In this document: piece by piece, positions 1 through 29,276 of the stretch
Layout of the letters: each line of letters begins with the position of its first letter
Position numbering within the stretch: position 1 is the first letter of the stretch
Source: a virus
Taxonomy: Duplodnaviria > Caudoviricetes
Length of the DNA: 64,000 bases
Strand: one strand, 5' to 3'
IMG/VR virus record: IMGVR_UViG_3300028580_000125
Span: 27,623-91,622 of that record
Notes under the pieces: model-generated
Told to the model about the DNA's origin: nothing
Database searches by the model: none
The model's input: the letters and a program-made list of their open reading frames with translations, nothing else
Made by a program: the position numbers and the translations under genes

Positions 1-1
1 C

Positions 2-1249
2 TTCCCAGGATTTGACGCAGAGTTGATCAAAGACCACATGGCGGCCAACGAGGACGGCGACGCGCAGCTTTCTGATTGGGAAGTGCAGGTGCGCGAGCTC
101 AATGACGACAATATTTCCAACGGCCAGCCACTTAAAAAGCGGTTTCGCGTCTACGAACGGTGGGGTTTTCTTTCCGGCAAAGACCTCGCGTCTGCTGGTG
201 TCGAGATTGCCGCAGAGGACATGACCAAGATTTATTCCTCCTGCATCTGGATTCTAGGTAACTCCATTATCAAGGCCTCGGTGAACCCGTTGGAAGGCGT
301 AGATATCCCCTACCACTTCTACCCCTACCAAGACGACGATTCATCGTTTTGGCCCGAGGGTATCGCCTACCAACTGCGCACGCCGCAATCCGGCATTAAT
401 GCTGCCGTCAGGGCCATGCAAGATAATGCTGGTGCATCTTCCGGCCCAATTTATGGAATCAACACGCAGGCTCTTGACGACACTCAGTCCGTTGACGAGA
501 TGCGCGCCAATAAGCTGTTCCTGTTTGCCAAGTCTGGCATCAACCTTTCTCAGGCATTCCAAGCGGTAACGGTCCCGTCAGCGATTGAACACAACATGAC
601 CCTGCAAAACTTTTGGCAGCAGGTTGGTGACGAGGTTTCCACGCCGCGCTTCAATCAGGGCGACGGCAACATCGCGGGCGCAGGTAAGACAGCCAGCGGC
701 CTTTCTATGCTTATGGGCGCGTCCAACATCCTGCTCAAGGATCACGTCAAAGATTTTGACGACTTCGTTGTGGCTCCCTTCATTCGGGCCATGTTCCGCT
801 GGAATATGCAGTGGAACCCGCGCGAGGACATCAAGGGCGACTTTGAAGTTGTCGCCTCTGGCAGTCAGTCACTCATAGCCAAAGAGGTACGCGCACAGCA
901 GGTTCCGGCGCTGATCGGCTATCTCGGAATCCCCGCCTTTGAACCATACCTCAAGGCAAAAGAGCTACTTGAGGTTGCCCTTGAGCAGACAGACCTGCCA
1001 GCAGAACGGCTCCTGCGCTCCGATGACGAGGCAAAGCAATATCAGCAACAGATGATGCTCGACCAGGCCAAGGCCCAAGCTCAGGCCCAGGCCTCGGCGC
1101 TTGTTGAACAGCTTGAACGCCAAGGCCTGCCCCCTGAACAAATCCAGCAGCAGTTGTTGATGCTCCTATCGAAAACCGTTCCAGCCACAATGGGCCCAGG
1201 CGGCCAGCAGCCAGGCGCAGCAATGCCGCCGCAAGGAGCGATGCAATGA
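2..1249 (+). CDS. Phage portal protein, C-terminal part (5' end outside window)
   Basis: Frame open from base 2. Podovirus portal-like motifs (YERWG, IPYHFYPY, FWPEGI, TASGLSMLMGA, IKGDFEVVASG) and Q-rich tail; lies upstream of scaffold and capsid. Confidence 0.8.
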   Translation, partial: FPGFDAELIKDHMAANEDGDAQLSDWEVQVRELNDDNISNGQPLKKRFRVYERWGFLSGKDLASAGVEIAAEDMTKIYSSCIWILGNSIIKASVNPLEGVDIPYHFYPYQDDDSSFWPEGIAYQLRTPQSGINAAVRAMQDNAGASSGPIYGINTQALDDTQSVDEMRANKLFLFAKSGINLSQAFQAVTVPSAIEHNMTLQNFWQQVGDEVSTPRFNQGDGNIAGAGKTASGLSMLMGASNILLKDHVKDFDDFVVAPFIRAMFRWNMQWNPREDIKGDFEVVASGSQSLIAKEVRAQQVPALIGYLGIPAFEPYLKAKELLEVALEQTDLPAERLLRSDDEAKQYQQQMMLDQAKAQAQAQASALVEQLERQGLPPEQIQQQLLMLLSKTVPATMGPGGQQPGAAMPPQGAMQ

Positions 1250-1467
1250 GCGCTCGAAGCTCAAAGGATGCGTCCATAAGAACGCTTCGCTCATGCAATG
1301 GGCAAGGTGTCTATACAGCACTCACAGATTTGCTGAGTTCAGTAATTGTCGAGGCCCATGAAGAGATGGAATCGGCAACTGACAATATCACCATTTGGCG
1401 CGCTCAGGGTAAGGCCACCGCAGCCAGAGACCTGATAGCCGCCATAAAACCGCGTGACGCGGAATAA
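1246..1467 (+). CDS. Small phage protein downstream of portal
   Basis: ATGA overlap with portal stop, AAGGAG SD, IWRAQG motif typical of small ORFs after podophage portals. Confidence 0.65.
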   Translation: MSARSSKDASIRTLRSCNGQGVYTALTDLLSSVIVEAHEEMESATDNITIWRAQGKATAARDLIAAIKPRDAE

Positions 1468-1477
1468 GGAGGAGATC

Positions 1478-2383
1478 ATGAGCCAGGTTAATGAAAACGA
1501 TCTGCAGCAGGGAGTTGAAACCCCCGTTGACGACGAAGAGACCCAATTCGATCAGGGCTTTTCCCTCGGCGAAGACGAAGCAGAAGCCAAGGGCAGTGCT
1601 GAAAATGGCCAGGAGCAGGAAGCCAACAGCGAAGGAAATGAAGCCGCTGGTTCCCAGGAACCCGCCAAGGCTGATGAAGGCAAGCAGCCCAATGTTCAGA
1701 ATGAACAGCCGCCGGCCGCAGAACAGCCCCAGCAGCCCCAACCGCAGATGGAACAGCCGCGCGAAAGCGCACCGGCAGAACCTGAGCCGCCGAAAAAAAT
1801 TGAAGTCCCTGAAAACCTCACTGAGGAATTTGCGACCCTCAAAAAACTGAACCCGGCCGCAGCAGAGCTTGCGCTTGAGGACTCGCCAGAAGGCGAACGG
1901 CTCAGGAGCCGAATGGAAGAATACGGGGCCGAGATGGCCCTTGATCGCGCTGAAGTCGTTCTTGATAAGCGCAACCGTGATGTTGCCACGCGCAAGGCTG
2001 ACTTTGAGCGCCAGCAGCAGGCAGTGCAGGAACACAATAATCGCTTCATGTCCACGCTCAAGCAAACGCACCCTGACTATGCGGCCATGATTACTGACCC
2101 GGCCAGGCGCGACGAAGCGGTCAAAAAGCAGAACGAAATCATCGAATGGATCAACGGCAAGCCATACGCTGAAGGCGCAAGGCTTATGCAGGTTGCAAAG
2201 TCGGGGCGCGACCCGAACGAAATATGCGCCCTGCTCACCCAATTTGAGAGCGAACGTCAGGCGAAGCCGAAGCTGGCTGATCCAACGGGAGCTCTCGCTG
2301 TGCCAGGAAGGGGTGCGCCCGCCGCGCCCGCAGGCATCGGAGATAAGGACGACTTCGATGCTGGATGGAACCTCGAAAAATAG
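1478..2383 (+). CDS. Putative capsid scaffolding protein
   Basis: TAAGGAGG SD before ATG 1478; acidic, Q/P-rich disordered N-terminus then coiled coil; directly precedes the capsid gene. Confidence 0.65.
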   Translation: MSQVNENDLQQGVETPVDDEETQFDQGFSLGEDEAEAKGSAENGQEQEANSEGNEAAGSQEPAKADEGKQPNVQNEQPPAAEQPQQPQPQMEQPRESAPAEPEPPKKIEVPENLTEEFATLKKLNPAAAELALEDSPEGERLRSRMEEYGAEMALDRAEVVLDKRNRDVATRKADFERQQQAVQEHNNRFMSTLKQTHPDYAAMITDPARRDEAVKKQNEIIEWINGKPYAEGARLMQVAKSGRDPNEICALLTQFESERQAKPKLADPTGALAVPGRGAPAAPAGIGDKDDFDAGWNLEK

Positions 2384-2404
2384 TCCAAGAAAGCGAGTTC
2401 AGTT

Positions 2405-3436
2405 ATGCCTATTACTACCACCGGCGACATCTCGTACCGCACTGCTGGTTACATGTCGAAAGAGCTTCTCAAGCGGGCTCAGCCCCTGCTCTGTGTAACC
2501 CGCCTTGGGCATCCCAAGCCGCTGCCCAAGAACTCCACACGAACCATCAAGTTCCGCGGCTATCAGCACATTGCCAGCCAGCCCAAAGTGTTGGTTGAAG
2601 GCGTGACCCCTGAGGCCAGCAAGCCTGAATTCAGGGATGTGTTCTGCACCGTTGAGCAGTATGGCGACTGGGTTGAATTGACTGACGTCATCAAGGACAC
2701 CCACGAAGACCCCATTCTCAACGAATTCACTGACATGCTTGGCGAACAGAGCGCCATCATGTTGGAGCGCGTTACCATCGGCAAGGTGCTTGCCGGTACC
2801 AACGTTTACTACAGCGGGACCACCGGCGGCGTGATTGCGACGAAGCGCAGCAGCGTCAACAAGCCCCTGAACATCAACCTGCAGCGCAGCGTGCGCCGTG
2901 GCCTTGAACGGCAGTTGGCAAAGCCGATCACCAAGATTGTGAGCGCGTCTCCCAATTTCAACACGTCGCCTATTCCCCAGGGCTTTATCGCCGTTTGCCA
3001 TACGGATTTGGACTCCGATATCCGCGACATGCCCGGCTTCATCCCTGTGGAAAAATACGCCCAGCAGCAGATCCTCCCTGGCGAAATCGGCACCGTGGAA
3101 AACATCCGCTACGTCGGCACCACGCTCCTTGAGCCGTTTGCTGACGCTGGCGCTGCGAGCGAAGCTGGCCAGAAGGCCGTTCTTTCTACGAGCGGTGCCT
3201 GCGCCGACGTCTACCCCATTCTCTTCTTCGGCCAGGACGCTTTTGGCGTCATTCCCCTGGCGCGTGAAAAGAGTGGTGCTTCTCCCATTACTCCCATGGT
3301 TCTTAACCCCGGCGTTCCCCGCAGTGGCGACCCCCTCGGTCAGCGCGGAAGCGTAAGCTGGAAGGCTTACCACGGCGCCGTCATCCTTTACGACTTCTAC
3401 ATGGCGCGCGTTGAAGTGGCCGCCTCCGCCCTCTAG
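2405..3436 (+). CDS. Major capsid protein, N4-gp56 family
   Basis: Motifs LPKNSTRTIKFR, LVEGVTP, QYGDWVELTD, GEIG, DVYPILFFGQDAFG, DPLGQRGSVSWK. Confidence 0.9.
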   Translation: MPITTTGDISYRTAGYMSKELLKRAQPLLCVTRLGHPKPLPKNSTRTIKFRGYQHIASQPKVLVEGVTPEASKPEFRDVFCTVEQYGDWVELTDVIKDTHEDPILNEFTDMLGEQSAIMLERVTIGKVLAGTNVYYSGTTGGVIATKRSSVNKPLNINLQRSVRRGLERQLAKPITKIVSASPNFNTSPIPQGFIAVCHTDLDSDIRDMPGFIPVEKYAQQQILPGEIGTVENIRYVGTTLLEPFADAGAASEAGQKAVLSTSGACADVYPILFFGQDAFGVIPLAREKSGASPITPMVLNPGVPRSGDPLGQRGSVSWKAYHGAVILYDFYMARVEVAASAL

Positions 3437-3451
3437 GCAAAGGATCGAATC

Positions 3452-3904
3452 ATGCCCAAGGACAAAGATATGACCAACACCCAGGAAGGAACCGAAACGG
3501 GTGCCGCCGACACCAGCGCAGAAGTGAAGGGCGTGGACGATGCCCCGTCTACCGATGCAACGGTTGCGCAGCGCGAACGGATGTCAACGAACCAGGTTCG
3601 CAAGGGACGCTGGGTAAGAATCGTTCTGGCAAGCGGCCAGGAAGAAGCCGAACGCGCCCCAGTGCCGATTGCCGTTAATGGCTACCAGTGCCTGCTCAAA
3701 CGCGACGAGGAAGGGATTATTCCCGAATCCCTTCTGAACGTGCTTGAAGACGCAGTTGAAACGCGCCCGGTTGTCGTCGAAGAAGGCGGCTCCCGCAAAG
3801 TTACCTGGAAGAAGATCAAGCGGTTTTCGTACATGGTTGTCGGCTCTTACGACACCAAGGCCGAAGCCGAAGCGGCTGCGGAAGCTGCGAAGGACAGCCA
3901 GTAA
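3452..3904 (+). CDS. Phage hypothetical protein following the capsid gene
   Basis: AAGGA SD; VPIAVNG...LLNVLEDA motif recalled from post-capsid ORFs of such phages. Confidence 0.6.
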   Translation: MPKDKDMTNTQEGTETGAADTSAEVKGVDDAPSTDATVAQRERMSTNQVRKGRWVRIVLASGQEEAERAPVPIAVNGYQCLLKRDEEGIIPESLLNVLEDAVETRPVVVEEGGSRKVTWKKIKRFSYMVVGSYDTKAEAEAAAEAAKDSQ

Positions 3905-18332: not shown

Positions 18333-21300
18333 ATGCCCAAACAAAAGGCCCCACGGCCTACGAAGACCAATACAGGCGATTACCTGCTTGATTTCGACGG
18401 GACAGATTTCAGCCAGTTCGGCGGCCAACAGGCGCAGCAGCAGGAAGAAGAACCTGGACTTATGAGCAAGATTGGCAGTTCTGCCCAGGCAATTGCTGAA
18501 GGTGCAACCATGCTGCCGGGCCAGATCGCTGATACGCTCAGGGATGCCTACCATGGCGGCGATGTGGATGTTACCGATACTGATGCCATTCGCGCGCGCC
18601 AGGCACGCGAGCAAGAGCGCGCAGACTACGGTAAAAAGTATGATGGCAAAGCCTTTGAGGGCGTAACCGATGCCATGAATTCCATGGGCTATTCCATGGG
18701 AACAATGGGTGCAAGCCTCGGCGCTGCGGCCCTGGCTTCCCCTGCCGGGCCGATTGCCGCTGGCGCAGCAGGCATGGCCGCCTCTGGCGCCATGGCATAC
18801 AGGGCAACAAAGCAGCAGTTTTTGCAGCAAATGCTTGGCGAGACGGAAAAGGTTCTTGGCCGCCTGCCAACACAGGATGAGTGGGACAAGATCGCCACAG
18901 AGTTTGACGGCGAGGCAACGCGCTACGGTGCATGGGAAGCAGGCCCGGAAGCCCTGAGCAACCTCATTATGGCAAAAATTCTCGGCCCGCTTGGAAAGGG
19001 CCTGTTGCGCGGCAGCGTGGGCCAGGGCATCAAGAGGATTGGCGGCCTGTATGGTGAAGAGCTTGCCACAGAAACAGCAACCCAGATGGGACAAGGCCAA
19101 GAAGAGGCCAATGTGGGCTTGCGCGACACAGCGCCGGGCGTCTGGGATGCGTTCAAGGAAATCGGCCCTGCTACGTTCTGGCAGACCACGCTCATGGCTG
19201 GCGGCAAGAAAGGTGCAGACATGCTTGCCAACCGCATGCGCGCACGTTCGCAACAGGTTGAAAATAATGTCGACCAGACGCAGCAACAGGGGCAAGGCAC
19301 AACGGGACTGACGAACCAAGCCGCATTGCCAATGGCGCAGGGGATATTTGCCTTGCCGCAGGGCGACGGCTCAATTCCCATGGGCAGCACAGATACGGGC
19401 CGGGGCCCCATTGCCGCAGGCGTTGTAGCTGGCCAGCAGCCAAAGCCTTTTCTCAGCGACGCTGACCATGCCGATACTGAGGCCTTTGTGCGTGCCTTTG
19501 AAGAGCGCGAGCGAAACAGGGATGACGAGGAAGCCCTTATCGAGTACGGCCAGCGTCAGGCCCGCTCGCCTGCTCAGCTTGCACTTGACCAGGGCGAAAA
19601 CGTCGACCTGCTATCGCTTCCGCAGGGTAATGCGGCCATGGCCATGGGGACCGAAGACACCGGGCGCGGCCCGATTGCCCCGCCAACTGACTATGCAGGT
19701 CAGCCCATTGCGACCCCATATACGCCACGCCCCGCCCTTCCTGAACAGACTTCGCAATCTGCGGGCATGGGCCAGTGGGCTGGCGGGCGCTCGCAGCTTG
19801 CCTACGGGCCGAAGTCTGAACCGCAGATGATGCAGGGCTTGGGCATCATGTCGCAGCAGGGAGCACCAGTTCAGCCCCAGGCAATGCCCACCTCGGCACA
19901 AATCAACAATACACAGGCCGCGCCCCGTTCGGACACAACAGCCGCAGCTAATGCCCTTGGCATGCCCTCGCCGCAGGCTGTTCCACAGGAGGCCATGGCC
20001 CCGCAGAGGGCACAGGCTTTGCCCCCAATAATGCAGGGCATAGGCGCTGCGCCTGCGCAGCCAACACCCGCCCCACAGCAAGCGTTTACCAGCCAGCCGC
20101 AGCCAGAACAAAATTCAAGAGGTCCGTGGCTTGAGGTGGTTCATATTGGCGATTCTGCCCCTAAAGCAAAGCCTCGGCCGCAACAGAGTCAGCCTGCAGG
20201 GCGTGCAGATGACTCGCGCCCAATTGGAAAGAACAGCCGCGGGCAGCAAGTGTTCGAGGACAAAAATGGAGTGCGCTCTTATGCTGACGGCGGCGTGCGA
20301 GTTTCGCAGAGCGTTGGTGTTATCCCCGGCCATGGCATAACGTTTGATGGCCCTGACGCGCTGTATAAGAGCGGAAAGCAGGAGTACCTGACCAACGACG
20401 AGGTTAAAAGCCTTTCTGGTGGCACAAGTGAGCCTGAGAGCAAAAAGCCAAGCCGCATAGAGCTCATTCGCCAACTCCCCAAAGAAGAGCAGGCTGATGC
20501 CCGCAAGCTTCCAAACTCAAAGCTGTTGGAGCGAGTTCGCCAGCTTTCAGAGGTCAATACTGCTTCCGAAGATCAGCCGGGCGTGGTAGAATCTAACCAT
20601 GCCAAGGAGGGCGAACATGCAGAAGCAAACGAAGGAAGAACGCGCGGAAATGAAGGAAAAGCTGAACCAGGTGTACGCAACCCTGACGAAGCCGTTGGAA
20701 ACCCAGCTGATGGATCACATGAAGAAGTACACGCCGAACCAGGTGAAGGAATGGCTGACGGACGACGGGCCGAAGGCGCTCGCGGACTTCATTCAGGAAC
20801 AGGTAGCGAGCGCGGAAAGCACGCGGGACGATACGGCGAAGAAGCTGATCGAAAAGGGGATGAGCGAGGGCGAAGCGTGGCCGATGGCGCGCGAAGTGGC
20901 GATGCAGGACTTTTGGCCACAAGCGGAACCCGGGCGCGAGGGGTAAAAGACTTTCGCATTTCCCCCGATGACCACATCGGAGAAGGTGGAAAGGTCGCCA
21001 AATTCAACGACAACCTTTCTGCCATTCGCACGCTCAAGGAAATTGAGCAGTCTGGCCGCCCAGCTACCGAAGACGAACAGAGAACCCTTGCCCGGTATGT
21101 TGGCTGGGGTGGCCTTCCAGAAGTGTTTGCCGAAGGCGGCAAGGCCGACCCTGCGCTGACCCGCAGGCGCGCCGAATTGCGCGAACTTCTTTCGCCAAAA
21201 GAATTTGAAGAAGCGCGCAGATCCACAACGAACGCTCACTACACTTCGCCTGAAATCATCATGGCAATGTGGGATGCCATTAAGCGTATGGGCTTTAAGG

Positions 21301-24300
21301 GCGGCAAAGTTCTTGAGCCTTCTATGGGCGTTGGCAACTTCATTGGCTTGATGCCTAATGACGTATACAAAAAGTCCCACGTCACCGGCATTGAGCTTGA
21401 TGGCATTACTGCGCGGATCGCAAAGCTGCTGTATCCGAAACAGACCATTCTTTCGCAGGGATTTGAAACTGCCAAACTGCGTGACGGCAGCTTTGACCTG
21501 GCCATATCCAACGTGCCATTCGGCGACTACAAGCTGCACGACACCCGCTACGCGAAGCACAATCTCTTCATCCACGACTATTTCATCACTCGCGCGCTCG
21601 ACCTTGTGCGCCCGGGCGGCGTGGTAGCCTTTATCACCACTTCCGGCTCACTGAACAGCGGGCGCTCAATGAATATGCGCCAGTTGGCCGCCGACAAGGC
21701 GCGCCTGCTCGGTGCTATTCGCCTGCCAGGCACATCATTCAGCAAGAATGCCCTCACGGACGTGACAACGGACATTCTGTTTTTGCAACGCCTTGGTGAG
21801 GGTGAAACCAACACCAGCCCCGCATGGAAGGATGTGGTTGATACCGACGTTGTTTCGGAGAAGACGGGCAAGCCGTTGCGGAACAACGAATACTATTCTG
21901 CGCACCCAGAAATGATGCTGGGGCAGCTGGCAGACGATAAGCTCTACCCTGGCAGGACGGCGCTTAAGGATGACGGCAGGGACATGCCGGCCGCTTTGGG
22001 TGACGCGCTGAAAACGCTCCCAGAAGGAGTGTTTTCTGGTGAAGGTCTGCGCCATGAGGATCAGAAAGCAACTGCCAATGTGCAGATGCAGGACGCCAAA
22101 GAGGGCCAGCTGCTGCTGGATGGCAAAGGCAATATCGTTCAGGTGTCTGACGGGGAACTGAAAAACTATCCGGCTGACGGAAAGAAAGCTGCGCGCATTG
22201 CCGGGATGATCGGGGTTCGTGATGCCCTGCGTTCAAACCTGCGGGCGCAGATGAACGGAGACGAAGACAGCATTGCGCACTCCCGCACGGCTCTCAACGA
22301 CGCTTACGACGCATTTGTGAAGCAGCACGGCTTCTTAAATGACAATGCCAACCGCCTGGCCATGTCAGAAGACCCCGACTTTCCCCTTTTGCAAGCCCTG
22401 GAAAACAACTACACCAAGGGAAAAAACGGTGCGCCTTCCAAGGCTGAGAAGGCCGACATCTTCACCCGCCGGACAATCGCTGAACCCAAGATTATTGAGC
22501 ACGCAGAGACGCCGCAGGATGCCCTGCACGCACAGCTTGCGGATATAGGCCGGGTTGATATTCCAGGCATTGCGAAAATGACCGGCCTTTCTGAGCAGGC
22601 CGTTATTGACGATTTACACGGAACCATCTTTCAAAACCCCAAGGGAACCCGGTGGGAAACCGCTGACGACTATCTCTCTGGGAACGTCCGCAAAAAACTT
22701 GCTGAGGCAAAGAAGGCCGCCGAAAAGGACGTGAAGTTCAAGGAGAACGTTAAGGCTCTAGAAGCCGTGCAGCCGCAGGATGTGCCGCCACAAGACATCC
22801 GCGTTGACCTGGGCGCCGGGTGGGTTCCCTCGGCGCGCGTTGAAGAATTTGCGGCAAAAGTCCTTGGCATATCGCCTTCAGACGTATCGGCACGCTATTC
22901 AAAAGAACTGGCGCAATGGTCGCTGAACGTCAAAAAAAGCGGCCTAAGCAATGAGTACGGGACGCCAGAGCGTAGCGCACTGGAACTGCTCAATGATTCG
23001 CTCAATCTGAAACAGGCAAAAATTCAGATCGACACGCCGGAAGGTGTGATCGTGAACAAGGAAGCCACCATTGCCGCCCGCGAGGCGCAACGCAAGTTGC
23101 ATGAAGAATTCTCGCGCTGGATTCTGGAGGATGAAAAGCGCGCCGCTGAATTGGCCCGCATCTACAACGACACTTACAATGCCATGCGCCTTTATGAGGC
23201 TGATGGCTCGCACCTTGTGTTGCCCGGCATTGCCGATACCATAGAGGGGAAACCCTTTGCCCTGCGCCCGCACCAGAAAAGCGCCGTGTGGAGGATTATC
23301 CAGAAGGGCAACACGCTGGTTGCCCATGCTGTTGGTGCTGGCAAAACGTATGAAATGATTGCCGCAGGCATGGAAATGAAGCGTCTTGGAATGATCAACA
23401 AGCCGCTTTACGTCGTTCCCAACCATATGCTTGAGCAGTGGTCGCGCGAGTTTTTGCAGGCCTACCCTGCCGCCAATATCCTCGTTGCATCCAAGGCTGA
23501 CCTTCAAAAGGAGAAGCGCCGCAAGTTTGTGAGCCGCATTGCCACTGGCAACTGGGATGCCGTGGTCATGACCCACTCTTCTTTTGGCCGCATTCCTATT
23601 TCAGTGGAGCGGAAAGAAAAACATATCCGCGATCAGATTGAGCAGTATGAATCTGCCCTGCGCGCCGAGAACGAAGAAAAGAAGGCTGGGCGCGGGCGTT
23701 CTGAAAACAGGCTTGTTAAGCAACTTGAAAAGCAGAAAATGCGCCTTGAAGAAAAACTTCGCACGCTGCTTGAAGACGGAAAAAATGCCAAAGATAACCA
23801 GGTGAATTTTGAAGAACTTGGCGTGGACTTCATGTTTGTCGATGAGGCCCATAACTTCAAGAATCTGAGCTACGTCACGCGGATGCAGCGCATTGCCGGT
23901 CTGCCCAATAGTCATTCCCAGCGCGCTGAGGACATGCTTCTGAAGACGCAGTACCTCGACGAATTGCACCCTGGCAGGAGCCTTGTGTTTGCCACCGGCA
24001 CGCCAATCTCCAATACCGTGGCCGAAATGTACACCATGACCAGGTATGTAGCTCCGCATCTGCTGCGCGAATCCGGCCTTGAAATGTGTGATTCTTGGGC
24101 GCGCCAGTTTGGCCGCACTGTCACCGGCATGGAAATATCGCCGGATGGCCGGAACTTCCGCGAAAATACCCGCTTCTCGCGTTTCACAAACGTGCCGGAA
24201 CTTTTGACCATGTTCCGCAGCTTTGCCGACGTGAAGACCAAGGAAGACCTCGACCTGCCGCTTCCTGACCTCAAGGGCGGCAAGCCTGAAGTTGTGTCTG

Positions 24301-27300
24301 TAAAGCCGTCCGAATCCCTCACGAATTATGTCGATGAACTTGTGGCCAGGGCTGAGAAGATACGTGGCGGTTCCGTTGATCCGCGCAAAGACAACATGCT
24401 CAAGGTGACAAGCGAGGGTCGCCTTGCTGCCCTGGACATGCGCCTGATTGACGACACGCTCCCTGCTGACCCCAATGGCAAGGTAGCGCGCGCGACTGAC
24501 AACATCTACGACATCTGGAAATCCACATCGAAGGACAGACTCGCCCAGATGGTTTTCTGCGACCTCTCTGTGCCATCAAAGCAGAGGGCCAAAGGCCTGA
24601 AGGAGGCAGAAAACCAAGATCAGGACGGCGAAGCCGCCAAGCCTGAGGCAAGTCCTGATGATTTGCTGGCTGCCGCATCTCGCGGGTCATTCAGCGTCTA
24701 CGACGAGATCAAGAACAACCTCGTCGACATGGGTGTTCCAGCAGACGAAATTGCCTTTATCCATGACTTCAACGGCGATAAGGCAAAGGCCCAGCTTTTT
24801 AAAGACGTGCGGGCGGGCAAGGTGCGGGTGCTCCTTGGTTCGACCGCTAAGATGGGAGAAGGAACGAACGTGCAGGAGCGACTTGTGGCTCTGCACCATC
24901 TGGACGCGCCCTGGAAGCCATCAGCCGTCGAACAGCGTGAAGGGCGAATTCTGCGCCAAGGCAACAAGAACAAAGAGGTGCAGATATACACCTATGTGAC
25001 CGAGAACAGCTTTGATGCCTATATGTGGCAATTGCTGGAATCGAAGGCGCGCTTTGTGGCCACATCCATGCGCAGCGGTGTCACCGAGCGAGACATGGAC
25101 GATATCAGCGTTACCGAACTTTCCGCTGCAGAAGCCAAGGCCGCCGCAACTGGAGATAAGCGCATCCTTGAAAAAGTTGGCCTGGACAACACCATATCTC
25201 GGTTGACCGTTCTGAAGCGTGAATTTGATCGCAACCAGTGGGCCAAGGGGCGCGAGGTAGCCGAATCTAAATCCCGCCTCGCCACGCTTACAGACATACT
25301 TGCTGCCGAAAAGAAAGATTTATCCCTGGCGGCAACGCTGACCGGGAAGAACTTTGCGCTCACCCTGCGCGGCAAAGAATACACGAAGTCCACGGATGCA
25401 GCCGCGGCTATAATCAGCATTGTTTCTGACAAAAGCATCCCCAGCGGCGCAGTCATCGGCAAGGCTGGCGGCTTTGATATTACCATGTGGCGCAAGGCAA
25501 CGGGCTATGAGTTTTCCCTGTCTGGGGAATCCTCGTTCAGTACCGGCGACACAACATCATCCGAAGGAGCCGTGACGCGCATCGTCAAGGGAGCCTCGCC
25601 AGAGAACAGCGCCAGCAGGATTGCGGCAACCGAAGAGGCCATTGCCAAAACAAACCGTAGACTTGATGGGGCAACGAAGTGGCTTACGAACAACAAGTCT
25701 TTCGACAGGCAAGAAGAACTGGAAACGGCCTTGGCCAGAAGCCAGGAGCTCGATGACGAGCTTGGTCTGTCTGCATCCAAGGATGCCAGCGTGATCAGCA
25801 ATGAAGCTGACAGCGACAATGATCTTATGGCCTCAAAGGTGAACCCTGGCGAATACCTCCCCCCCGTTGACGGGAAAAAGGGCATGCGCCTTGAAGACGT
25901 ACAGACCGTTGCTGACAAGATCGGGAAGCTGGCAAAAAATGCGGCAGCGTCGCGTGTCGTGCAAGGTTTTGACGAACTGCCATATTCGATCAGGGAGCGT
26001 TATTCGGACGCTAAAAACAGCGTCGAGGGCGTTTTTGACCCGCGTTCTGGCGTGGTCTGGATGGTGGCCGACAACCTCAGTGATCCAACGCGCGCGGCCG
26101 AGGTGTGGGCCCATGAACAGATTGTTCACCATGGCCTGCGCGGGCTGCTTCCGGCTGATGCCAGAAGGCGTGTGCTTAACCAGCTTTGGCTTGGTGCTGG
26201 CGGCATGAAGAACGGCATGGTGAAGGACATTGCCAGCCGTTACGGCTTGGCCCCCACCAGAAGCTTGCAAGACCGTCAAACGGTTATGGAAGAAGTCATT
26301 GCTGCCCTGGCAGAAAAGAAGGGGCAGGGGCTTCTTGAGCGCGCCGAAGGCAACCTATGGCGCAGGGTTGTTTCTGCCCTGTACCGTGCATGGAACAGCC
26401 TCGTTCGCGCCGTTTCTGGGCGAGAAGGGGCTATGAACATGGACAACATTGATGCCTTGCTCTCCGCACTCGGAAGACATGTGATTGATGGGGAATCTTC
26501 CGGCATCACCCAGAAGGCCGGGCCGTTTGAACAGGCGGTTGCGCCAGCGTCGATGTCAACTGAGGGTGACGGCGGCGTTGAATTGGCTTCCCTTTCACCG
26601 AAAGACATTCTCGGCCTTACTGGCATAAAGGCCGCAAAGATTGCTGACGCACCAGAGATTCACCATATGTTCAAGAAGGATGACTTGAGCTTGATGCAGA
26701 GCATTTTTAATCTGCCGCATTGGATTGCCAAAAAAGCGCCGGCCTTTGCCAAAGTCTATGAACGGCAGTTGCAACGCTTGGATGATCGGTCATCCGCGCT
26801 CAAGGAAAGCCTTGAAACCGCGCCGAGCATTTTCGGCAAGGACAGACTCAAGCCTGCCGACATGGACAGCCTGAAAAAGCTGCTTTGGGAGCATGAGGGC
26901 CGGGACGCATGGCAGATTGACGCTTCCGGCGTTGACAAGTTTGTCACCAAGGAAACTCTGGCCAACGGGCGAGAATTAATTTCTGTGAACCCTGAATTTT
27001 ATCGGGAGTACAAGAAATGGCTCGGCGGCCTGGAAGGCACAAAGGCTGCCAAGGACGCAATGCTTGAAATTCGCAAGAGCCTTGATGAGGACTTGGTGCG
27101 GGCTCATAACCGCATGGCTGCAATGTCTGAAATGAGCGACGACGCGATCAGGGAGTTCCGGCAAAGCATTGGCCATGTGCCGAACTACTTTCCTCACCAC
27201 CGATATGGGAACTACTTTATTCAAGCGAAGATCGGTGATGAGGTTGTTTTTAGGCAGCACTTTGATGCACTGAACACCCAAGCGGCAAAACAGCGCGCCG

Positions 27301-29276
27301 CCATGATCGCTGCTGAGCAAAAAGAAAACTACCCTGGCGCAAGCTGGACGGATGGAAAGAATGACCGTCTGCCAGATGAAATTCTTGGCGCACCGATTGA
27401 CACCGAGGCAATGGAGCAAATCATCCGTGCGGCAACATCGAAGATTGCGGACAAGGAACGTGCCGCCGAAATCAATGAACTGCTCACGTCTGGCGTTGCC
27501 GATGTGCTTAAGGCGCGTGGCTGGGGCGCGCACGGCATACAACGTAAAGGCATTCCAGGCTTTGAGCGTGAGGACATCACGCGGGTGCTCTACGACTACA
27601 AATCCGGCCTGAATGGCTGGCTTACCAAGATGGAGGCCGCAAAGGATTTCAGCGAGGCGTTGTCGGGCATTGATGCACGGCGCACTCCGAACCTTTGGAA
27701 GTACACGGCCCAATACGTCAAAGACATGCTGCGCAACTCTGATCGCGTGGACAGGATCACCGGCAATATCAAGTCTGTTGCCTTTGCCTGGTATCTTGGC
27801 GGCTCAATCAAAACTGCGTTTGTGAACGCCACCCAGAACCTTGTAGTGGGTGTGCCGCGCTTGCAGATGGATGTAACCGGCGGCGGCCGCCTCTGGCTCG
27901 ATGGTGCGCAAAAAGCAATCATTGACCGGGTGACAGGCAGCAAGGGCAAAGGCCTTTCGGACGAAGAGGCAAAGCTCGTACATGAACTTTACGGCGAGAG
28001 CGTGATCACTGACGCTTTCATGGAAGAAGTGCGCGGGCATTTGCAGGGCTTCACCGGCGCTACGCTCTGGAACAAGTTCACTAAGGCATTGGGCCTGCCC
28101 ATGAGCGAAGTTGAACGATTCAACCGGGCCAGTTTGGCCCTGGCCGCATTCCGCGCTGCGCGCAGCGGCAAGCTCAAGCAGCAGGCAAAAGAGAAGTATG
28201 GTGTCAGGGGCGAACAGGCGAATTATGACCAGGCGAAAGAATTTGCCACGGATGTAGTGCGAGATGCCCACTTTGTGTACGGCAAGTCCAACCTGCCAGA
28301 GTTCATGCGCAGCAATACTGCCGGGCGGTCAATGGCTTCGCTCTATACGTTCCGCACGTTCACACACAACATGATTTCCATGTGGGCATGGGCGCTGGAA
28401 TCGCAAGGCAAAGAAGGCGCTGCGTTTGTGGCGAAAAGCATAGGGGCCACAATGGCCCTTGGCGGCGTTACCGCCCTGCCCTTCTACGCAACCATTATGG
28501 CCTTGTGCCAGGCTGCCACCGGAGACGATGACGATTGGACAGAAAAACTCCGCTCCTGGCTGCCCAAGAACAACTTGCTGCGGGATGCTGTGTGCTACGG
28601 CACGCCAGCCATGGCCGGGGTAAACATTGGCGGCTCGCTCAAGATGGAGACGCCTATTACTGGCGGCCTTGCCAAGGGTAAGACGCCCAAAGAAATACTT
28701 ACCCAGAGCATTGGGGATATAATCGGCGTTCCATACGATTTGCTGATCGAAAAGCCCTCCAAGATGATTGAGGCTCACCGCAAGGGGAATACGTGGAGAA
28801 TGATCGAAGAGGCCATGCCGGTTGCATTCAAGAGCGGCATGCAGGCTTGGCGGCTGTACACCCATGGGCAAACAACCATGTCTGGACGGCCAATAAATGA
28901 CCCTGGAACGCCAGGTGCGCGCAAGCTTTCGTCAAGTGAGGCCATAGGCAAGGCTCTTGGATTCCAGCCAGTCAGTAGCACAAAGAGCTATGATGCGTAT
29001 GCCGCATCGCAGCATTCGAAACAGGTGCGCGACGACAAGCTTGATGACCTTACGGCCATGGCGCTGAAAACAGTCGATACTGGGGACCCGGCGGGCAGAA
29101 AGGAAATGCTCAAGGACCTCAAAAATTGGAACAGTCGCATGAAGGAAGAGGGCAAGCCCAATATGCTCATTGCACCCAAAGAAGTTATTCGCAGGGTGAA
29201 GGCACGCAGGCGCGAGAACAGGCCGACGCCAAAGAACCTGCGCGAAAAGGCACGGCTGCAGGCGTCTTGGAACTAA
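18333..29276 (+). CDS. Giant DarB-like polyvalent protein: N6-adenine MTase, SNF2 helicase, zincin-like peptidase motif, PLxRFG-like C-terminal region
   Basis: AAGGAG SD; VLEPSMGVG (~21309), NVPF (~21510), HAVGAGKT (~23330), DEAH (23841), QREGRILRQGN, HEQIVHH (~26112), YFPHHRYG (~27186). Confidence 0.85.
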   Translation: MPKQKAPRPTKTNTGDYLLDFDGTDFSQFGGQQAQQQEEEPGLMSKIGSSAQAIAEGATMLPGQIADTLRDAYHGGDVDVTDTDAIRARQAREQERADYGKKYDGKAFEGVTDAMNSMGYSMGTMGASLGAAALASPAGPIAAGAAGMAASGAMAYRATKQQFLQQMLGETEKVLGRLPTQDEWDKIATEFDGEATRYGAWEAGPEALSNLIMAKILGPLGKGLLRGSVGQGIKRIGGLYGEELATETATQMGQGQEEANVGLRDTAPGVWDAFKEIGPATFWQTTLMAGGKKGADMLANRMRARSQQVENNVDQTQQQGQGTTGLTNQAALPMAQGIFALPQGDGSIPMGSTDTGRGPIAAGVVAGQQPKPFLSDADHADTEAFVRAFEERERNRDDEEALIEYGQRQARSPAQLALDQGENVDLLSLPQGNAAMAMGTEDTGRGPIAPPTDYAGQPIATPYTPRPALPEQTSQSAGMGQWAGGRSQLAYGPKSEPQMMQGLGIMSQQGAPVQPQAMPTSAQINNTQAAPRSDTTAAANALGMPSPQAVPQEAMAPQRAQALPPIMQGIGAAPAQPTPAPQQAFTSQPQPEQNSRGPWLEVVHIGDSAPKAKPRPQQSQPAGRADDSRPIGKNSRGQQVFEDKNGVRSYADGGVRVSQSVGVIPGHGITFDGPDALYKSGKQEYLTNDEVKSLSGGTSEPESKKPSRIELIRQLPKEEQADARKLPNSKLLERVRQLSEVNTASEDQPGVVESNHAKEGEHAEANEGRTRGNEGKAEPGVRNPDEAVGNPADGSHEEVHAEPGEGMADGRRAEGARGLHSGTGSERGKHAGRYGEEADRKGDERGRSVADGARSGDAGLLATSGTRARGVKDFRISPDDHIGEGGKVAKFNDNLSAIRTLKEIEQSGRPATEDEQRTLARYVGWGGLPEVFAEGGKADPALTRRRAELRELLSPKEFEEARRSTTNAHYTSPEIIMAMWDAIKRMGFKGGKVLEPSMGVGNFIGLMPNDVYKKSHVTGIELDGITARIAKLLYPKQTILSQGFETAKLRDGSFDLAISNVPFGDYKLHDTRYAKHNLFIHDYFITRALDLVRPGGVVAFITTSGSLNSGRSMNMRQLAADKARLLGAIRLPGTSFSKNALTDVTTDILFLQRLGEGETNTSPAWKDVVDTDVVSEKTGKPLRNNEYYSAHPEMMLGQLADDKLYPGRTALKDDGRDMPAALGDALKTLPEGVFSGEGLRHEDQKATANVQMQDAKEGQLLLDGKGNIVQVSDGELKNYPADGKKAARIAGMIGVRDALRSNLRAQMNGDEDSIAHSRTALNDAYDAFVKQHGFLNDNANRLAMSEDPDFPLLQALENNYTKGKNGAPSKAEKADIFTRRTIAEPKIIEHAETPQDALHAQLADIGRVDIPGIAKMTGLSEQAVIDDLHGTIFQNPKGTRWETADDYLSGNVRKKLAEAKKAAEKDVKFKENVKALEAVQPQDVPPQDIRVDLGAGWVPSARVEEFAAKVLGISPSDVSARYSKELAQWSLNVKKSGLSNEYGTPERSALELLNDSLNLKQAKIQIDTPEGVIVNKEATIAAREAQRKLHEEFSRWILEDEKRAAELARIYNDTYNAMRLYEADGSHLVLPGIADTIEGKPFALRPHQKSAVWRIIQKGNTLVAHAVGAGKTYEMIAAGMEMKRLGMINKPLYVVPNHMLEQWSREFLQAYPAANILVASKADLQKEKRRKFVSRIATGNWDAVVMTHSSFGRIPISVERKEKHIRDQIEQYESALRAENEEKKAGRGRSENRLVKQLEKQKMRLEEKLRTLLEDGKNAKDNQVNFEELGVDFMFVDEAHNFKNLSYVTRMQRIAGLPNSHSQRAEDMLLKTQYLDELHPGRSLVFATGTPISNTVAEMYTMTRYVAPHLLRESGLEMCDSWARQFGRTVTGMEISPDGRNFRENTRFSRFTNVPELLTMFRSFADVKTKEDLDLPLPDLKGGKPEVVSVKPSESLTNYVDELVARAEKIRGGSVDPRKDNMLKVTSEGRLAALDMRLIDDTLPADPNGKVARATDNIYDIWKSTSKDRLAQMVFCDLSVPSKQRAKGLKEAENQDQDGEAAKPEASPDDLLAAASRGSFSVYDEIKNNLVDMGVPADEIAFIHDFNGDKAKAQLFKDVRAGKVRVLLGSTAKMGEGTNVQERLVALHHLDAPWKPSAVEQREGRILRQGNKNKEVQIYTYVTENSFDAYMWQLLESKARFVATSMRSGVTERDMDDISVTELSAAEAKAAATGDKRILEKVGLDNTISRLTVLKREFDRNQWAKGREVAESKSRLATLTDILAAEKKDLSLAATLTGKNFALTLRGKEYTKSTDAAAAIISIVSDKSIPSGAVIGKAGGFDITMWRKATGYEFSLSGESSFSTGDTTSSEGAVTRIVKGASPENSASRIAATEEAIAKTNRRLDGATKWLTNNKSFDRQEELETALARSQELDDELGLSASKDASVISNEADSDNDLMASKVNPGEYLPPVDGKKGMRLEDVQTVADKIGKLAKNAAASRVVQGFDELPYSIRERYSDAKNSVEGVFDPRSGVVWMVADNLSDPTRAAEVWAHEQIVHHGLRGLLPADARRRVLNQLWLGAGGMKNGMVKDIASRYGLAPTRSLQDRQTVMEEVIAALAEKKGQGLLERAEGNLWRRVVSALYRAWNSLVRAVSGREGAMNMDNIDALLSALGRHVIDGESSGITQKAGPFEQAVAPASMSTEGDGGVELASLSPKDILGLTGIKAAKIADAPEIHHMFKKDDLSLMQSIFNLPHWIAKKAPAFAKVYERQLQRLDDRSSALKESLETAPSIFGKDRLKPADMDSLKKLLWEHEGRDAWQIDASGVDKFVTKETLANGRELISVNPEFYREYKKWLGGLEGTKAAKDAMLEIRKSLDEDLVRAHNRMAAMSEMSDDAIREFRQSIGHVPNYFPHHRYGNYFIQAKIGDEVVFRQHFDALNTQAAKQRAAMIAAEQKENYPGASWTDGKNDRLPDEILGAPIDTEAMEQIIRAATSKIADKERAAEINELLTSGVADVLKARGWGAHGIQRKGIPGFEREDITRVLYDYKSGLNGWLTKMEAAKDFSEALSGIDARRTPNLWKYTAQYVKDMLRNSDRVDRITGNIKSVAFAWYLGGSIKTAFVNATQNLVVGVPRLQMDVTGGGRLWLDGAQKAIIDRVTGSKGKGLSDEEAKLVHELYGESVITDAFMEEVRGHLQGFTGATLWNKFTKALGLPMSEVERFNRASLALAAFRAARSGKLKQQAKEKYGVRGEQANYDQAKEFATDVVRDAHFVYGKSNLPEFMRSNTAGRSMASLYTFRTFTHNMISMWAWALESQGKEGAAFVAKSIGATMALGGVTALPFYATIMALCQAATGDDDDWTEKLRSWLPKNNLLRDAVCYGTPAMAGVNIGGSLKMETPITGGLAKGKTPKEILTQSIGDIIGVPYDLLIEKPSKMIEAHRKGNTWRMIEEAMPVAFKSGMQAWRLYTHGQTTMSGRPINDPGTPGARKLSSSEAIGKALGFQPVSSTKSYDAYAASQHSKQVRDDKLDDLTAMALKTVDTGDPAGRKEMLKDLKNWNSRMKEEGKPNMLIAPKEVIRRVKARRRENRPTPKNLREKARLQASWN
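20617..20946 (+). CDS. Nested (+1 frame) 109-aa helical protein, TnpV/DUF1896-like
   Basis: AAGGAGG at 20604-20610, 6 nt before ATG 20617. The product looks like a folded helical protein, while the host frame here is low-complexity G/R/E/A. Confidence 0.6.
   Translation: MQKQTKEERAEMKEKLNQVYATLTKPLETQLMDHMKKYTPNQVKEWLTDDGPKALADFIQEQVASAESTRDDTAKKLIEKGMSEGEAWPMAREVAMQDFWPQAEPGREG

What the first reader, a model, noticed from the sequence alone, without database searches (positions are those of the whole stretch)
20604..20946. Hidden overprinted gene inside the giant DarB-like gene, directly ahead of the MTase domain
Seen: a perfect AAGGAGG 6 nt before ATG 20617 opens a 109-codon +1-frame ORF (MQKQTKEERAEMKEKLNQVYATLTKPLETQLMDHMKKYTPNQVKEWL...KKLIEKGMSEGEAWPMAREVAMQDFWP) with amphipathic helical character. 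Over the same interval the host frame reads like off-frame sequence (G/R/E/A-rich). The nested stop falls where the MTase-proximal folded region begins (KDFRI). From memory it resembles TnpV/DUF1896-type small proteins, which are found as separate genes near MTase-helicase genes in conjugative elements. Inference: a two-gene module (small partner plus MTase-helicase) was captured by in-frame fusion to a virion protein, and the partner was kept as a nested gene. It may regulate or inhibit the enzyme, or allow re-initiation of a shorter MTase-helicase. Standard annotation would miss it.
Basis: partly seen in the sequence, partly recalled or inferred. Interest (0 to 1): 0.75.

Follow-up and report, generated by a model that had tools for sequence, protein, structure and literature searches.

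The report
Hidden gene inside giant phage gene
A real, unannotated gene for a small acidic helical protein is written one base out of frame inside the floppy linker of this prophage's 3,647-codon DarB-like methylase-helicase gene; the same layout recurs in at least 14 phages and 2 plasmids, but its function is unknown.

Summary
AAGGAGG (20604-20610) sits 6 nt before ATG 20617, followed by 109 codons and TAA at 20944-20946. This is the +1 frame of the giant ORF 18333-29276, and it ends where the methylase domain (KDFRI) begins.

ORF length and the Shine-Dalgarno motif alone are no more than chance. The evidence that it is a gene:
- **Substitution phase.** Against two close relatives, substitutions move to the third position of the nested frame only in this stretch. 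Five same-frame control ORFs in the same gene do not show this.
- **Host frame kept open.** It has no stops, although synonymous recoding predicts about 5 (P = 0.003).
- **Fold.** The +1 product folds confidently (pLDDT 87, five helices). The host-frame reading is predicted coil (pLDDT 34-43).
- **Recurrence.** A +1 ORF with its own SD and ATG sits at the same place in 13 other phages.
- **TnpV link.** A bona fide TnpV gene (PF14198, 85 bits) is nested the same way in a Clostridium perfringens plasmid gene.

The window's protein is a divergent relative. It fails the Pfam TnpV threshold and links only through a profile comparison (E 3e-5).

Function is unknown, and a role as partner of the enzyme is inferred from position only. 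I found no paper describing this. Earlier notes of this scan report the same nesting on other DNA.

The parts
18333..29276 (+). Giant host gene (3647 aa): DarB-like polyvalent virion-type protein. It has an N-terminal region, a linker, an N6-MTase, an SNF2 helicase, an HExxH motif and a C-terminal PLxRFG-type region.
   Evidence: One open frame. phrog_10089 'DarB-like antirestriction' at E 0. Pfam SNF2-rel_dom, ResIII, Helicase_C and Eco57I. Motifs located.
20604..20610 (+). Shine-Dalgarno sequence AAGGAGG, 6 nt upstream of the nested ATG.
   Evidence: Read directly. Invariant in L002 and L003. An SD-like GGAG, GAGG or AGGAGG sits 5-10 nt before the homologous ATG in most of the 13 other phages; it is weaker in POI1126 and 8P.
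20617..20946 (+). Nested gene in the +1 frame: 109 codons plus TAA. The product is an acidic (pI 4.96) five-helix protein, a divergent TnpV-like family member.
   Evidence: Translation. Phase switch of substitutions. Intact in L002 and L003. Free-standing 121-aa homologue P0033 at 42% identity, E 1e-11. AF2 pLDDT 87.1, pTM 0.74. pI.
20616..20945 (+). Host-frame reading of the same bases (giant aa 762-871): a low-complexity disordered linker that is kept open but barely constrained in sequence.
   Evidence: Changed host-frame codons are 11 nonsynonymous against 4 synonymous versus L002. AF2 pLDDT 34-43 and no secondary structure over giant aa 747-889. No stops although about 5 are expected.
20946..21953 (+). 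N6-adenine MTase domain of the giant protein (aa 872 to about 1207). It starts at the last base of the nested stop codon.
   Evidence: KDFRISP at 20946, RYVGWGG at 21093, NVPFG at 21510. phrog_37568 and Pfam Eco57I. tblastn finds 91 phage and 1388 plasmid records starting at this point.
23187..24962 (+). SNF2/DEAD-type helicase domains of the giant protein (aa 1619-2210).
   Evidence: Pfam SNF2-rel_dom, ResIII, DEAD and Helicase_C. GAGKT at 23334 and DEAHNFKN at 23841.

Best explanation
Bases 20617-20946 are a real same-strand nested gene.

**Expression (inferred).** The late mRNA of the giant DarB-like gene most likely carries it; the scan found no sigma-70-like promoter nearby. Ribosomes start independently at the internal AAGGAGG-N6-ATG and read the +1 frame.

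**Product.** A 109-residue acidic five-helix protein, a divergent member of a TnpV-like family.

**Host frame.** Ribosomes translating the giant gene read the same bases in frame 0 as a disordered G/R/E/A-rich linker between the N-terminal region and the methylase domain. Selection acts on the amino-acid sequence of the nested frame. On the host frame it mainly keeps the frame open.

**Distribution.** The layout is shared with methylase-helicase genes of many phages and of two of the three plasmids examined. It is therefore probably older than this prophage rather than specific to it.

**Function (inferred, weak).** The small gene is always placed directly before the methylase domain, so the two proteins are made together. 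It most likely serves the methylase-helicase module as an accessory factor, for example in folding, regulation or loading. About 0.3 of my belief goes to that role and the rest to an unrelated function.

Shown here: the ORF, the SD, selection on both frames, a confident predicted fold, and recurrence. Not shown: translation, binding, or any activity.
For: 1. **Phase switch.** In 20617-20943 the differences by host codon position are [10,1,4] against L002 and [11,8,6] against L003. The rest of the gene gives [47,36,422] and [126,84,630]. Fisher p is 2e-7 to 6e-4. Five control +1 ORFs in the same gene keep the host pattern.
2. **Same switch in distant phage pairs.** For example Pavtok versus LASTA gives nested positions [18,13,38].
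3. **Host frame open in all 15 loci.** Synonymous recoding predicts 0.9-17 stops per locus. P is 0.003 for the window and the summed log10 P is -28, although the lineages are not all independent.
4. **Same position and frame elsewhere.** tblastn of the L004 nested product hits 12 phages, always inside the annotated giant CDS. The offset is +1 by coordinate arithmetic in 7 of the 9 opened records. PBC5 and Itty13 are the exceptions. Gervaise, CSP3 and 8P also have +1 ORFs ending at the MTase start.
5. **Conserved start.** The ATG is conserved, with an SD-like motif before it in most loci.
6. **Bona fide TnpV nested the same way.** PF14198 at 84.9 bits, E 4.7e-24, in Clostridium perfringens plasmid NZ_CP102305.
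7. **Fold contrast.** AF2 gives pLDDT 87 for the +1 product and 34-43 for the host-frame reading.
8. **Independent homologue.** P0033, 121 aa, 42% identity.
Against: - No direct evidence of translation.
- The window's protein has no Pfam, PHROG or PDB match. Its tie to the other nested proteins rests on a moderate hhalign score (probability 73%) plus position.
- Three low-GC faecal phage contigs and one Rhizobium plasmid have the methylase-helicase without any nested ORF. The small protein is therefore not obligatory for the enzyme.
- Free-standing tnpV genes exist in Tn4451, Tn6104 and related elements (PMC3158075). The protein may therefore have a function of its own.
- Phase counts on two close relatives are few: 15 and 25 substitutions.
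Confidence: 0.85

Rival explanations
1. Programmed +1 ribosomal frameshifting. Ribosomes translating the N-terminal part of the giant gene slip into the +1 frame near 20600. This would make a truncated N-terminal protein ending in the TnpV-like domain. The small protein would then not be made on its own.
For: In Sinorhizobium phage PBC5 the N-terminal part is in frame with the nested ORF and ends at its stop. An N-terminal/TnpV-like fusion is therefore at least tolerated, or is a sequencing error. From general knowledge, internal SD sequences are known stimulators of frameshifting, as in prfB and dnaX.
Against: An ATG is conserved at the homologous first codon in all loci, with an SD-like motif at initiation spacing in most. 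In Pavtok, PEp14 and LASTA a +1-frame stop lies only 2 codons before that ATG, and 9 codons before it in the window. This leaves almost no room for a shift site. I made no systematic search for a shared slippery motif; none was evident in the upstream sequences printed.
Confidence: 0.05
2. The giant ORF is not one gene. An upstream virion gene, the small gene and a methylase-helicase gene would be separate, and the frame-0 read-through of the small gene would be accidental.
For: The host-frame reading is unconstrained in sequence and is predicted disordered. PBC5 as deposited is split at this point.
Against: The host frame is open in all 15 loci against expectation, with P 0.003 in the window alone. 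Frame 0 has no stop ending an upstream gene. The methylase part has no ATG with an SD, only GTG 20877 and TTG 20913 without one. In L004 all 9 nested codons ending in T are followed by C, which avoids host-frame stops (read directly).
Confidence: 0.04
3. Chance ORF. A G/E/A/R-rich linker has G at codon position 1. This makes the +1 frame poor in T at position 3 and so free of stops, with a fortuitous SD and ATG.
For: AAGGAGG frequency equals chance. Five other +1 ORFs of similar length exist in the same gene. Composition alone cannot tell which frame drives the G enrichment.
Against: The phase switch is specific to this ORF. There is a 42%-identical free-standing homologue and a confident fold. 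The layout recurs with a conserved start in distant phages and plasmids, including a full-score TnpV.
Confidence: 0.03

Closest known systems
TnpV (Pfam PF14198), small protein of Tn4451/Tn4453 and Tn6104-6106
   Same: It is small (about 110-125 aa), helical and carried by mobile elements. A full-score TnpV is nested in the same frame and position in a Clostridium perfringens plasmid methylase-helicase gene. The phage counterparts hit the TnpV model weakly.
   Different: The window's protein does not match PF14198 at all and is linked only through profile comparison and position. Classic TnpV genes are free-standing. TnpV is postulated, not shown, to act like lambda Xis in excision (PMC3158075). 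Nothing here points to excision.
Embedded spanin gene Rz1 inside Rz of phage lambda; phiX174 genes B, K and E; comS inside srfAB (from my own knowledge, not tested here)
   Same: A complete gene with its own ribosome-binding site lies wholly inside another gene on the same strand, out of frame. Both products are made from one mRNA.
   Different: In this case the host frame over the overlap is only a disordered linker. The cost of dual coding is therefore small, and the nested frame carries nearly all the constraint. The pair is conserved across phages and plasmids of different phyla. The nested protein belongs to a family that also exists free-standing, so it was probably not created de novo by overprinting.
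P1 DarB and the polyvalent proteins of phages and conjugative elements (Iyer et al. 2017, PMC5512222)
   Same: The host gene has the MTase plus SNF2-helicase core, an HExxH motif and large size.
   Different: The paper's main text contains none of the words TnpV, overlapping or frameshift. From my own knowledge, P1 DarB has no N-terminal extension and so no linker to host such a gene.

Membership tests
TnpV (Pfam PF14198) | Score at or above the Pfam gathering threshold (27 bits) | tested here: not met
   P0001 has no TnpV hit even at E up to 10. The L004 counterpart scores 22.9 bits, E 8.8e-5. Four of 10 phage counterparts hit at E up to 0.01, all below threshold.
TnpV (Pfam PF14198) | Profile-level homology to recognised or near-recognised members | tested here: inconclusive
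   hhalign of A2 (window family) against A3 (phage counterparts) gives probability 72.7%, E 3.2e-5 over 59 columns, with matching motifs. A2 and A3 against the single Clostridium perfringens TnpV are not significant. The Atlas feature search lists a TnpV cluster at 0.78, which is a lead only.
TnpV (Pfam PF14198) | Small all-helical protein of a mobile element, in the same genomic position as a bona fide member | tested here: met
   109 aa with five helices. It sits in the +1 frame directly before the MTase domain, as does the 84.9-bit TnpV in NZ_CP102305.
Same-strand nested (embedded) genes, Rz/Rz1 type | Complete ORF with its own start codon and SD, wholly inside another ORF in a different frame | tested here: met
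Same-strand nested (embedded) genes, Rz/Rz1 type | Both frames kept intact in relatives, with purifying selection on the embedded frame | tested here: met
Same-strand nested (embedded) genes, Rz/Rz1 type | Both products shown to be made | not testable with these tools
   This needs ribosome profiling or proteomics.
DUF1896 (PG0816, PDB 2apl) | Sequence or fold similarity to PG0816 | tested here: inconclusive
   Foldseek gives E 0.7, TM 0.32. VIA gives Z 4.3, rmsd 2.8 over 57 residues at rank 27. There is no sequence hit in the PDB.
DarB-like polyvalent MTase-helicase (host gene) | N6-MTase domain followed by an SNF2-type helicase in one polypeptide | tested here: met
   phrog_10089 at E 0. Pfam Eco57I, SNF2-rel_dom, ResIII and Helicase_C. 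Motifs NVPFG, GAGKT and DEAH.

The most novel reading that the evidence does not exclude
The nested TnpV-like gene and the methylase-helicase form one ancient two-frame unit. It would be conserved from Firmicute plasmids to proteobacterial, cyanobacterial and Desulfovibrio-type phages. The small acidic protein would be a dedicated cofactor of the injected or transferred anti-restriction enzyme, for example a chaperone, an inhibitor until packaging, or a DNA mimic. Nesting would enforce co-inheritance and co-expression.
Probability: 0.3. Interest if true: 0.85.

Novelty: new variant of a known kind. Interest (0 to 1): 0.7.

Why it matters
Same-strand nested genes that are conserved over large distances are rare in bacteria and their large phages. 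This one sits in one of the largest and least understood classes of phage and plasmid proteins.

- **A missing component.** If the small protein is made, every study of DarB-like or polyvalent anti-restriction proteins has overlooked a co-encoded component. Deletions or truncations of the linker would have hit two genes at once.
- **Annotation.** None of the nine annotated phage records opened here lists the small gene.
- **Evolution.** It gives a clear natural case of how a disordered linker can carry a second, folded protein at little cost.
- **Testability.** Cultured phages (Pavtok, PEp14, LASTA, Atu_ph08, VvAW1, Gervaise) carry the same layout, so the function can be tested directly.

Tried and rejected
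- **Contig look-up.** I could not see the contigs of P0003, P0004 or the 42%-identical homologue P0033. Whether P0033 stands alone or is nested is unknown.
- **Locus scans with P0001, P0033 or alignment A2.** Viral contigs and genome contigs gave nothing. Metagenome contigs gave only the two close relatives L002 and L003.
- **tblastn of P0001 against phages.** No match.
- **Representative library hits.** Matches to a saposin-repeat protein and a TPR-like protein (P0034, P0035) are repeat noise.
- **Fold and sequence searches of the P0001 model.** No convincing relative. Foldseek PDB best E 0.7. VIA best Z 6.1, in the range usual for helical bundles. No PDB sequence match.
- **Complex prediction.** P0001 with giant aa 872-1610 returned no verdict (score 0.00). 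This is neither for nor against binding.
- **tnpV as a separate neighbour gene in plasmids.** Not seen in the three loci opened. Two of them have a nested +1 ORF instead.
- **Own promoter.** The scan found no sigma-70-like site in 20200-21200.
- **hhalign of the Gervaise/CSP3/8P group against A3 and A2.** Weak, at E 0.002 and 0.018.
- **Composition alone.** G at nested position 3 equals G at host position 1, so composition cannot decide which frame codes.

Full report
**What is in the window**

The giant ORF runs from 18333 to 29276 (3647 aa). It matches PHROG 10089 'DarB-like antirestriction' at E 0. It carries Eco57I-type N6-MTase and SNF2/ResIII/Helicase_C domains. Genes upstream encode internal virion and tail-fibre-like proteins. 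The window is part of a 91.6-kb IMG/VR provirus record.

Inside the gene, AAGGAGG (20604-20610) lies 6 nt before ATG 20617. This opens 109 codons in the +1 frame, ending in TAA at 20944-20946. The conserved start of the MTase domain, KDFRISP, begins at 20946.

**Is it more than chance?**

Not by length or by the SD alone. AAGGAGG occurs 7 times in the window against 7.05 expected. The giant gene contains five other +1-frame ORFs of 89-120 codons. Composition cannot decide either, because the excess of G at nested position 3 is the same thing as G at host position 1. The decisive evidence is comparative.

**Close relatives**

Two metagenome contigs, L002 and L003, carry the same gene. Their nested proteins are 95% and 90% identical to the window's, and they align without gaps. 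In both, the nested ORF and its SD/ATG are intact and the giant frame is open, at 3655 and 3846 aa.

| Region | Differences by host codon position, vs L002 | vs L003 |
|---|---|---|
| Giant gene downstream of the overlap | [47,36,422] | [126,84,630] |
| 20617-20943 | [10,1,4] | [11,8,6] |

Outside the overlap, substitutions fall at host position 3. Inside it, they move to host position 1, which is nested position 3. Fisher p ranges from 2e-7 to 6e-4. All five control +1 ORFs keep the host pattern. Changed codons are 10 synonymous and 5 nonsynonymous in the nested frame, against 4 and 11 in the host frame (L002). Purifying selection therefore acts on the +1 frame in this stretch.

**The host frame is also selected, but only to stay open**

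I recoded the nested protein synonymously with the giant gene's codon usage. This gives a mean of 5 host-frame stops, and the frame is open in only 0.3% of trials. The host-frame peptide (aa 762-871) is 9% hydrophobic. AF2 predicts coil with pLDDT 34-43 across aa 747-889. The +1 product, with an alignment of only six sequences, gives pLDDT 87.1, pTM 0.74 and five helices.

**Homologues of the product**

The exact 109-aa sequence and near-identical variants are in the public protein collection. They are unnamed, and most were called on short contigs. A full HMMER scan of 1.84 billion representatives found one real distant homologue. This is P0033, 121 aa, 42% identical, E 1e-11, with shared motifs such as PLE.QL..HM and M.DFWP. 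No Pfam, PHROG or PDB relative was found.

**The same layout elsewhere**

- **L004.** This provirus has an MTase domain 54% identical to the window's. It has a 75-codon +1 ORF with GGAG before its ATG, ending 39 nt before the MTase homology. It hits Pfam TnpV at 22.9 bits, E 8.8e-5, below the 27-bit cut-off.
- **Twelve cultured or deposited phages.** tblastn with the L004 product finds Erwinia Pavtok, PEp14 and Stean; Pseudomonas Itty13; Agrobacterium Atu_ph08; Klebsiella LASTA, SJM3 and SopranoGao; Sinorhizobium PBC5; Microcystis Mwe-JY07; Ochrobactrum POI1126; and Vibrio VvAW1. E-values run from 7e-17 to 3e-7. The match is always inside the annotated giant CDS and is never annotated on its own.
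- **Frame.** Coordinate arithmetic puts the match in the +1 frame in 7 of the 9 opened records. The exceptions are PBC5, where it is in frame, and Itty13, where the annotated CDSs lie on the other strand.
- **Start.** All begin with MNLNNW-like sequences at a conserved ATG. Most have GGAG or GAGG 6-10 nt upstream.
- **More distant phages.** Ralstonia phage Gervaise, Burkholderia phage CSP3 and Pseudomonas phage 8P have more diverged +1 ORFs at the same place. AGGAGG or AAGGAGG precedes the ATG in Gervaise and CSP3, and a weaker AAGGGA in 8P.
- **Selection.** Pairs of these phages show the same phase switch. The host frame is open in all of them against expectation, with summed log10 P of -28 over 15 loci, not all independent.
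- **Charge.** The 11 phage nested proteins analysed are acidic, with pI 4.4-5.9.

The window's family aligns to this phage family by hhalign with probability 73% and E 3.2e-5, over the conserved motifs.

**Plasmids**

The MTase domain is found in 1388 plasmid records. I opened three loci.

- The Clostridium perfringens plasmid NZ_CP102305 has a full-length, 84.9-bit TnpV (E 4.7e-24). It is nested in the +1 frame inside the 'helicase-related protein' gene, about 100 nt before the MTase domain.
- A Campylobacter jejuni pTet plasmid has a 158-codon +1 ORF at the same place.
- A Rhizobium plasmid, whose enzyme has only a 75-aa extension, has none.

Three low-GC faecal phage contigs also lack it and have folded-looking sequence there instead. 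I opened the plasmid loci in this frame-aware way after earlier notes of this scan reported the same nesting in other genomes. Those notes are leads. The results above are my own tests.

**Interpretation**

The most economical reading is a real nested gene, translated by internal initiation on the giant gene's mRNA, in a stretch where the host protein needs only a flexible tether. The nested protein belongs, at least distantly, to a family that also exists as free-standing genes. TnpV of Tn4451 and Tn6104-6106 is postulated to be Xis-like (PMC3158075). The layout therefore probably arose when flanking genes fused by reading through an intervening small gene in another frame, not by de novo overprinting. 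That step is inference.

The layout is shared by Firmicute and Campylobacter plasmids and by phages of Proteobacteria and cyanobacteria. It is therefore unlikely to be an invention of this prophage.

What the protein does is unknown. Its fixed position before the MTase domain suggests a link to the enzyme. However, enzymes without it and tnpV genes without the enzyme both exist. A complex prediction gave no verdict.

**Rivals**

- *Frameshifting into the +1 frame.* PBC5 suggests it: a 1-nt deletion about 45 nt upstream puts the N-terminal part in the nested frame. It is made unlikely by the conserved ATG and by +1-frame stops 2-9 codons upstream of it.
- *Three separate genes.* This is contradicted by the maintained host frame and by the lack of a start with an SD for the MTase part.
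- *Chance.* This is contradicted by the ORF-specific phase switch and the recurrence.

**Novelty**

Full-text searches for TnpV, for DarB with overlapping genes, for PLxRFG, and for overprinting with anti-restriction found no description. The main text of the main paper on polyvalent proteins contains none of the words TnpV, overlapping or frameshift. Nested genes and TnpV are both known kinds. This conserved pairing inside polyvalent methylase-helicase genes appears to be unreported in the literature I could search.

Noticed in passing
L011 (Sinorhizobium phage PBC5, NC_003324) about 1455-1501: Relative to Agrobacterium phage Atu_ph08, PBC5 has a 1-nt deletion (GTCGAAGC to GTCGAGC) and a 12-nt insertion just upstream of the nested ATG. 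The N-terminal part of the giant gene is therefore in frame with the nested ORF and stops with it. The MTase part is left unannotated in RefSeq. This is either a real split or an old sequencing error.
   Followed up: partly
L007 (Pseudomonas phage Itty13, NC_070969) 1-3222: The two annotated 'hypothetical protein' CDSs lie on the strand opposite to an open frame of more than 1074 codons. That frame carries the MTase homology and the nested ORF. The giant gene seems to be annotated on the wrong strand.
   Followed up: no
protein cluster of P0004: The 90%-identity cluster mixes the nested protein with an unrelated membrane-protein-like sequence. The link is a 196-aa chimera (P0028) that joins the two, probably from a chimeric assembly.
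   Followed up: no
window 26112-26132: An HExxH motif (HEQIVHH, giant aa 2594-2600) lies downstream of the helicase. It fits the embedded zincin-like peptidases described for polyvalent proteins. Such a peptidase could cut the polyprotein, perhaps in linkers like the one that hosts the nested gene.
   Followed up: no
L004 5735-5962: All 9 nested codons that end in T are followed by a codon starting with C. The host frame therefore reads TCN (Ser) and never forms a stop. This is a visible footprint of stop avoidance in the host frame.
   Followed up: partly
L023 (Campylobacter jejuni pTet plasmid NZ_AP028391) 2013-2489: A 158-codon +1 ORF with no Pfam match is nested before the MTase domain of the SNF2-related gene. 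The same MTase domain was hit in 212 Campylobacter plasmid records, so this could be a further, unrecognised branch of the nested family.
   Followed up: partly
window 19468-19830, 18991-19311, 21358-21627, 24658-24999, 25867-26208: Five other +1-frame ORFs of 89-120 codons lie inside the giant gene. Their substitutions follow the host frame, so they are not genes. They are useful negative controls.
   Followed up: yes
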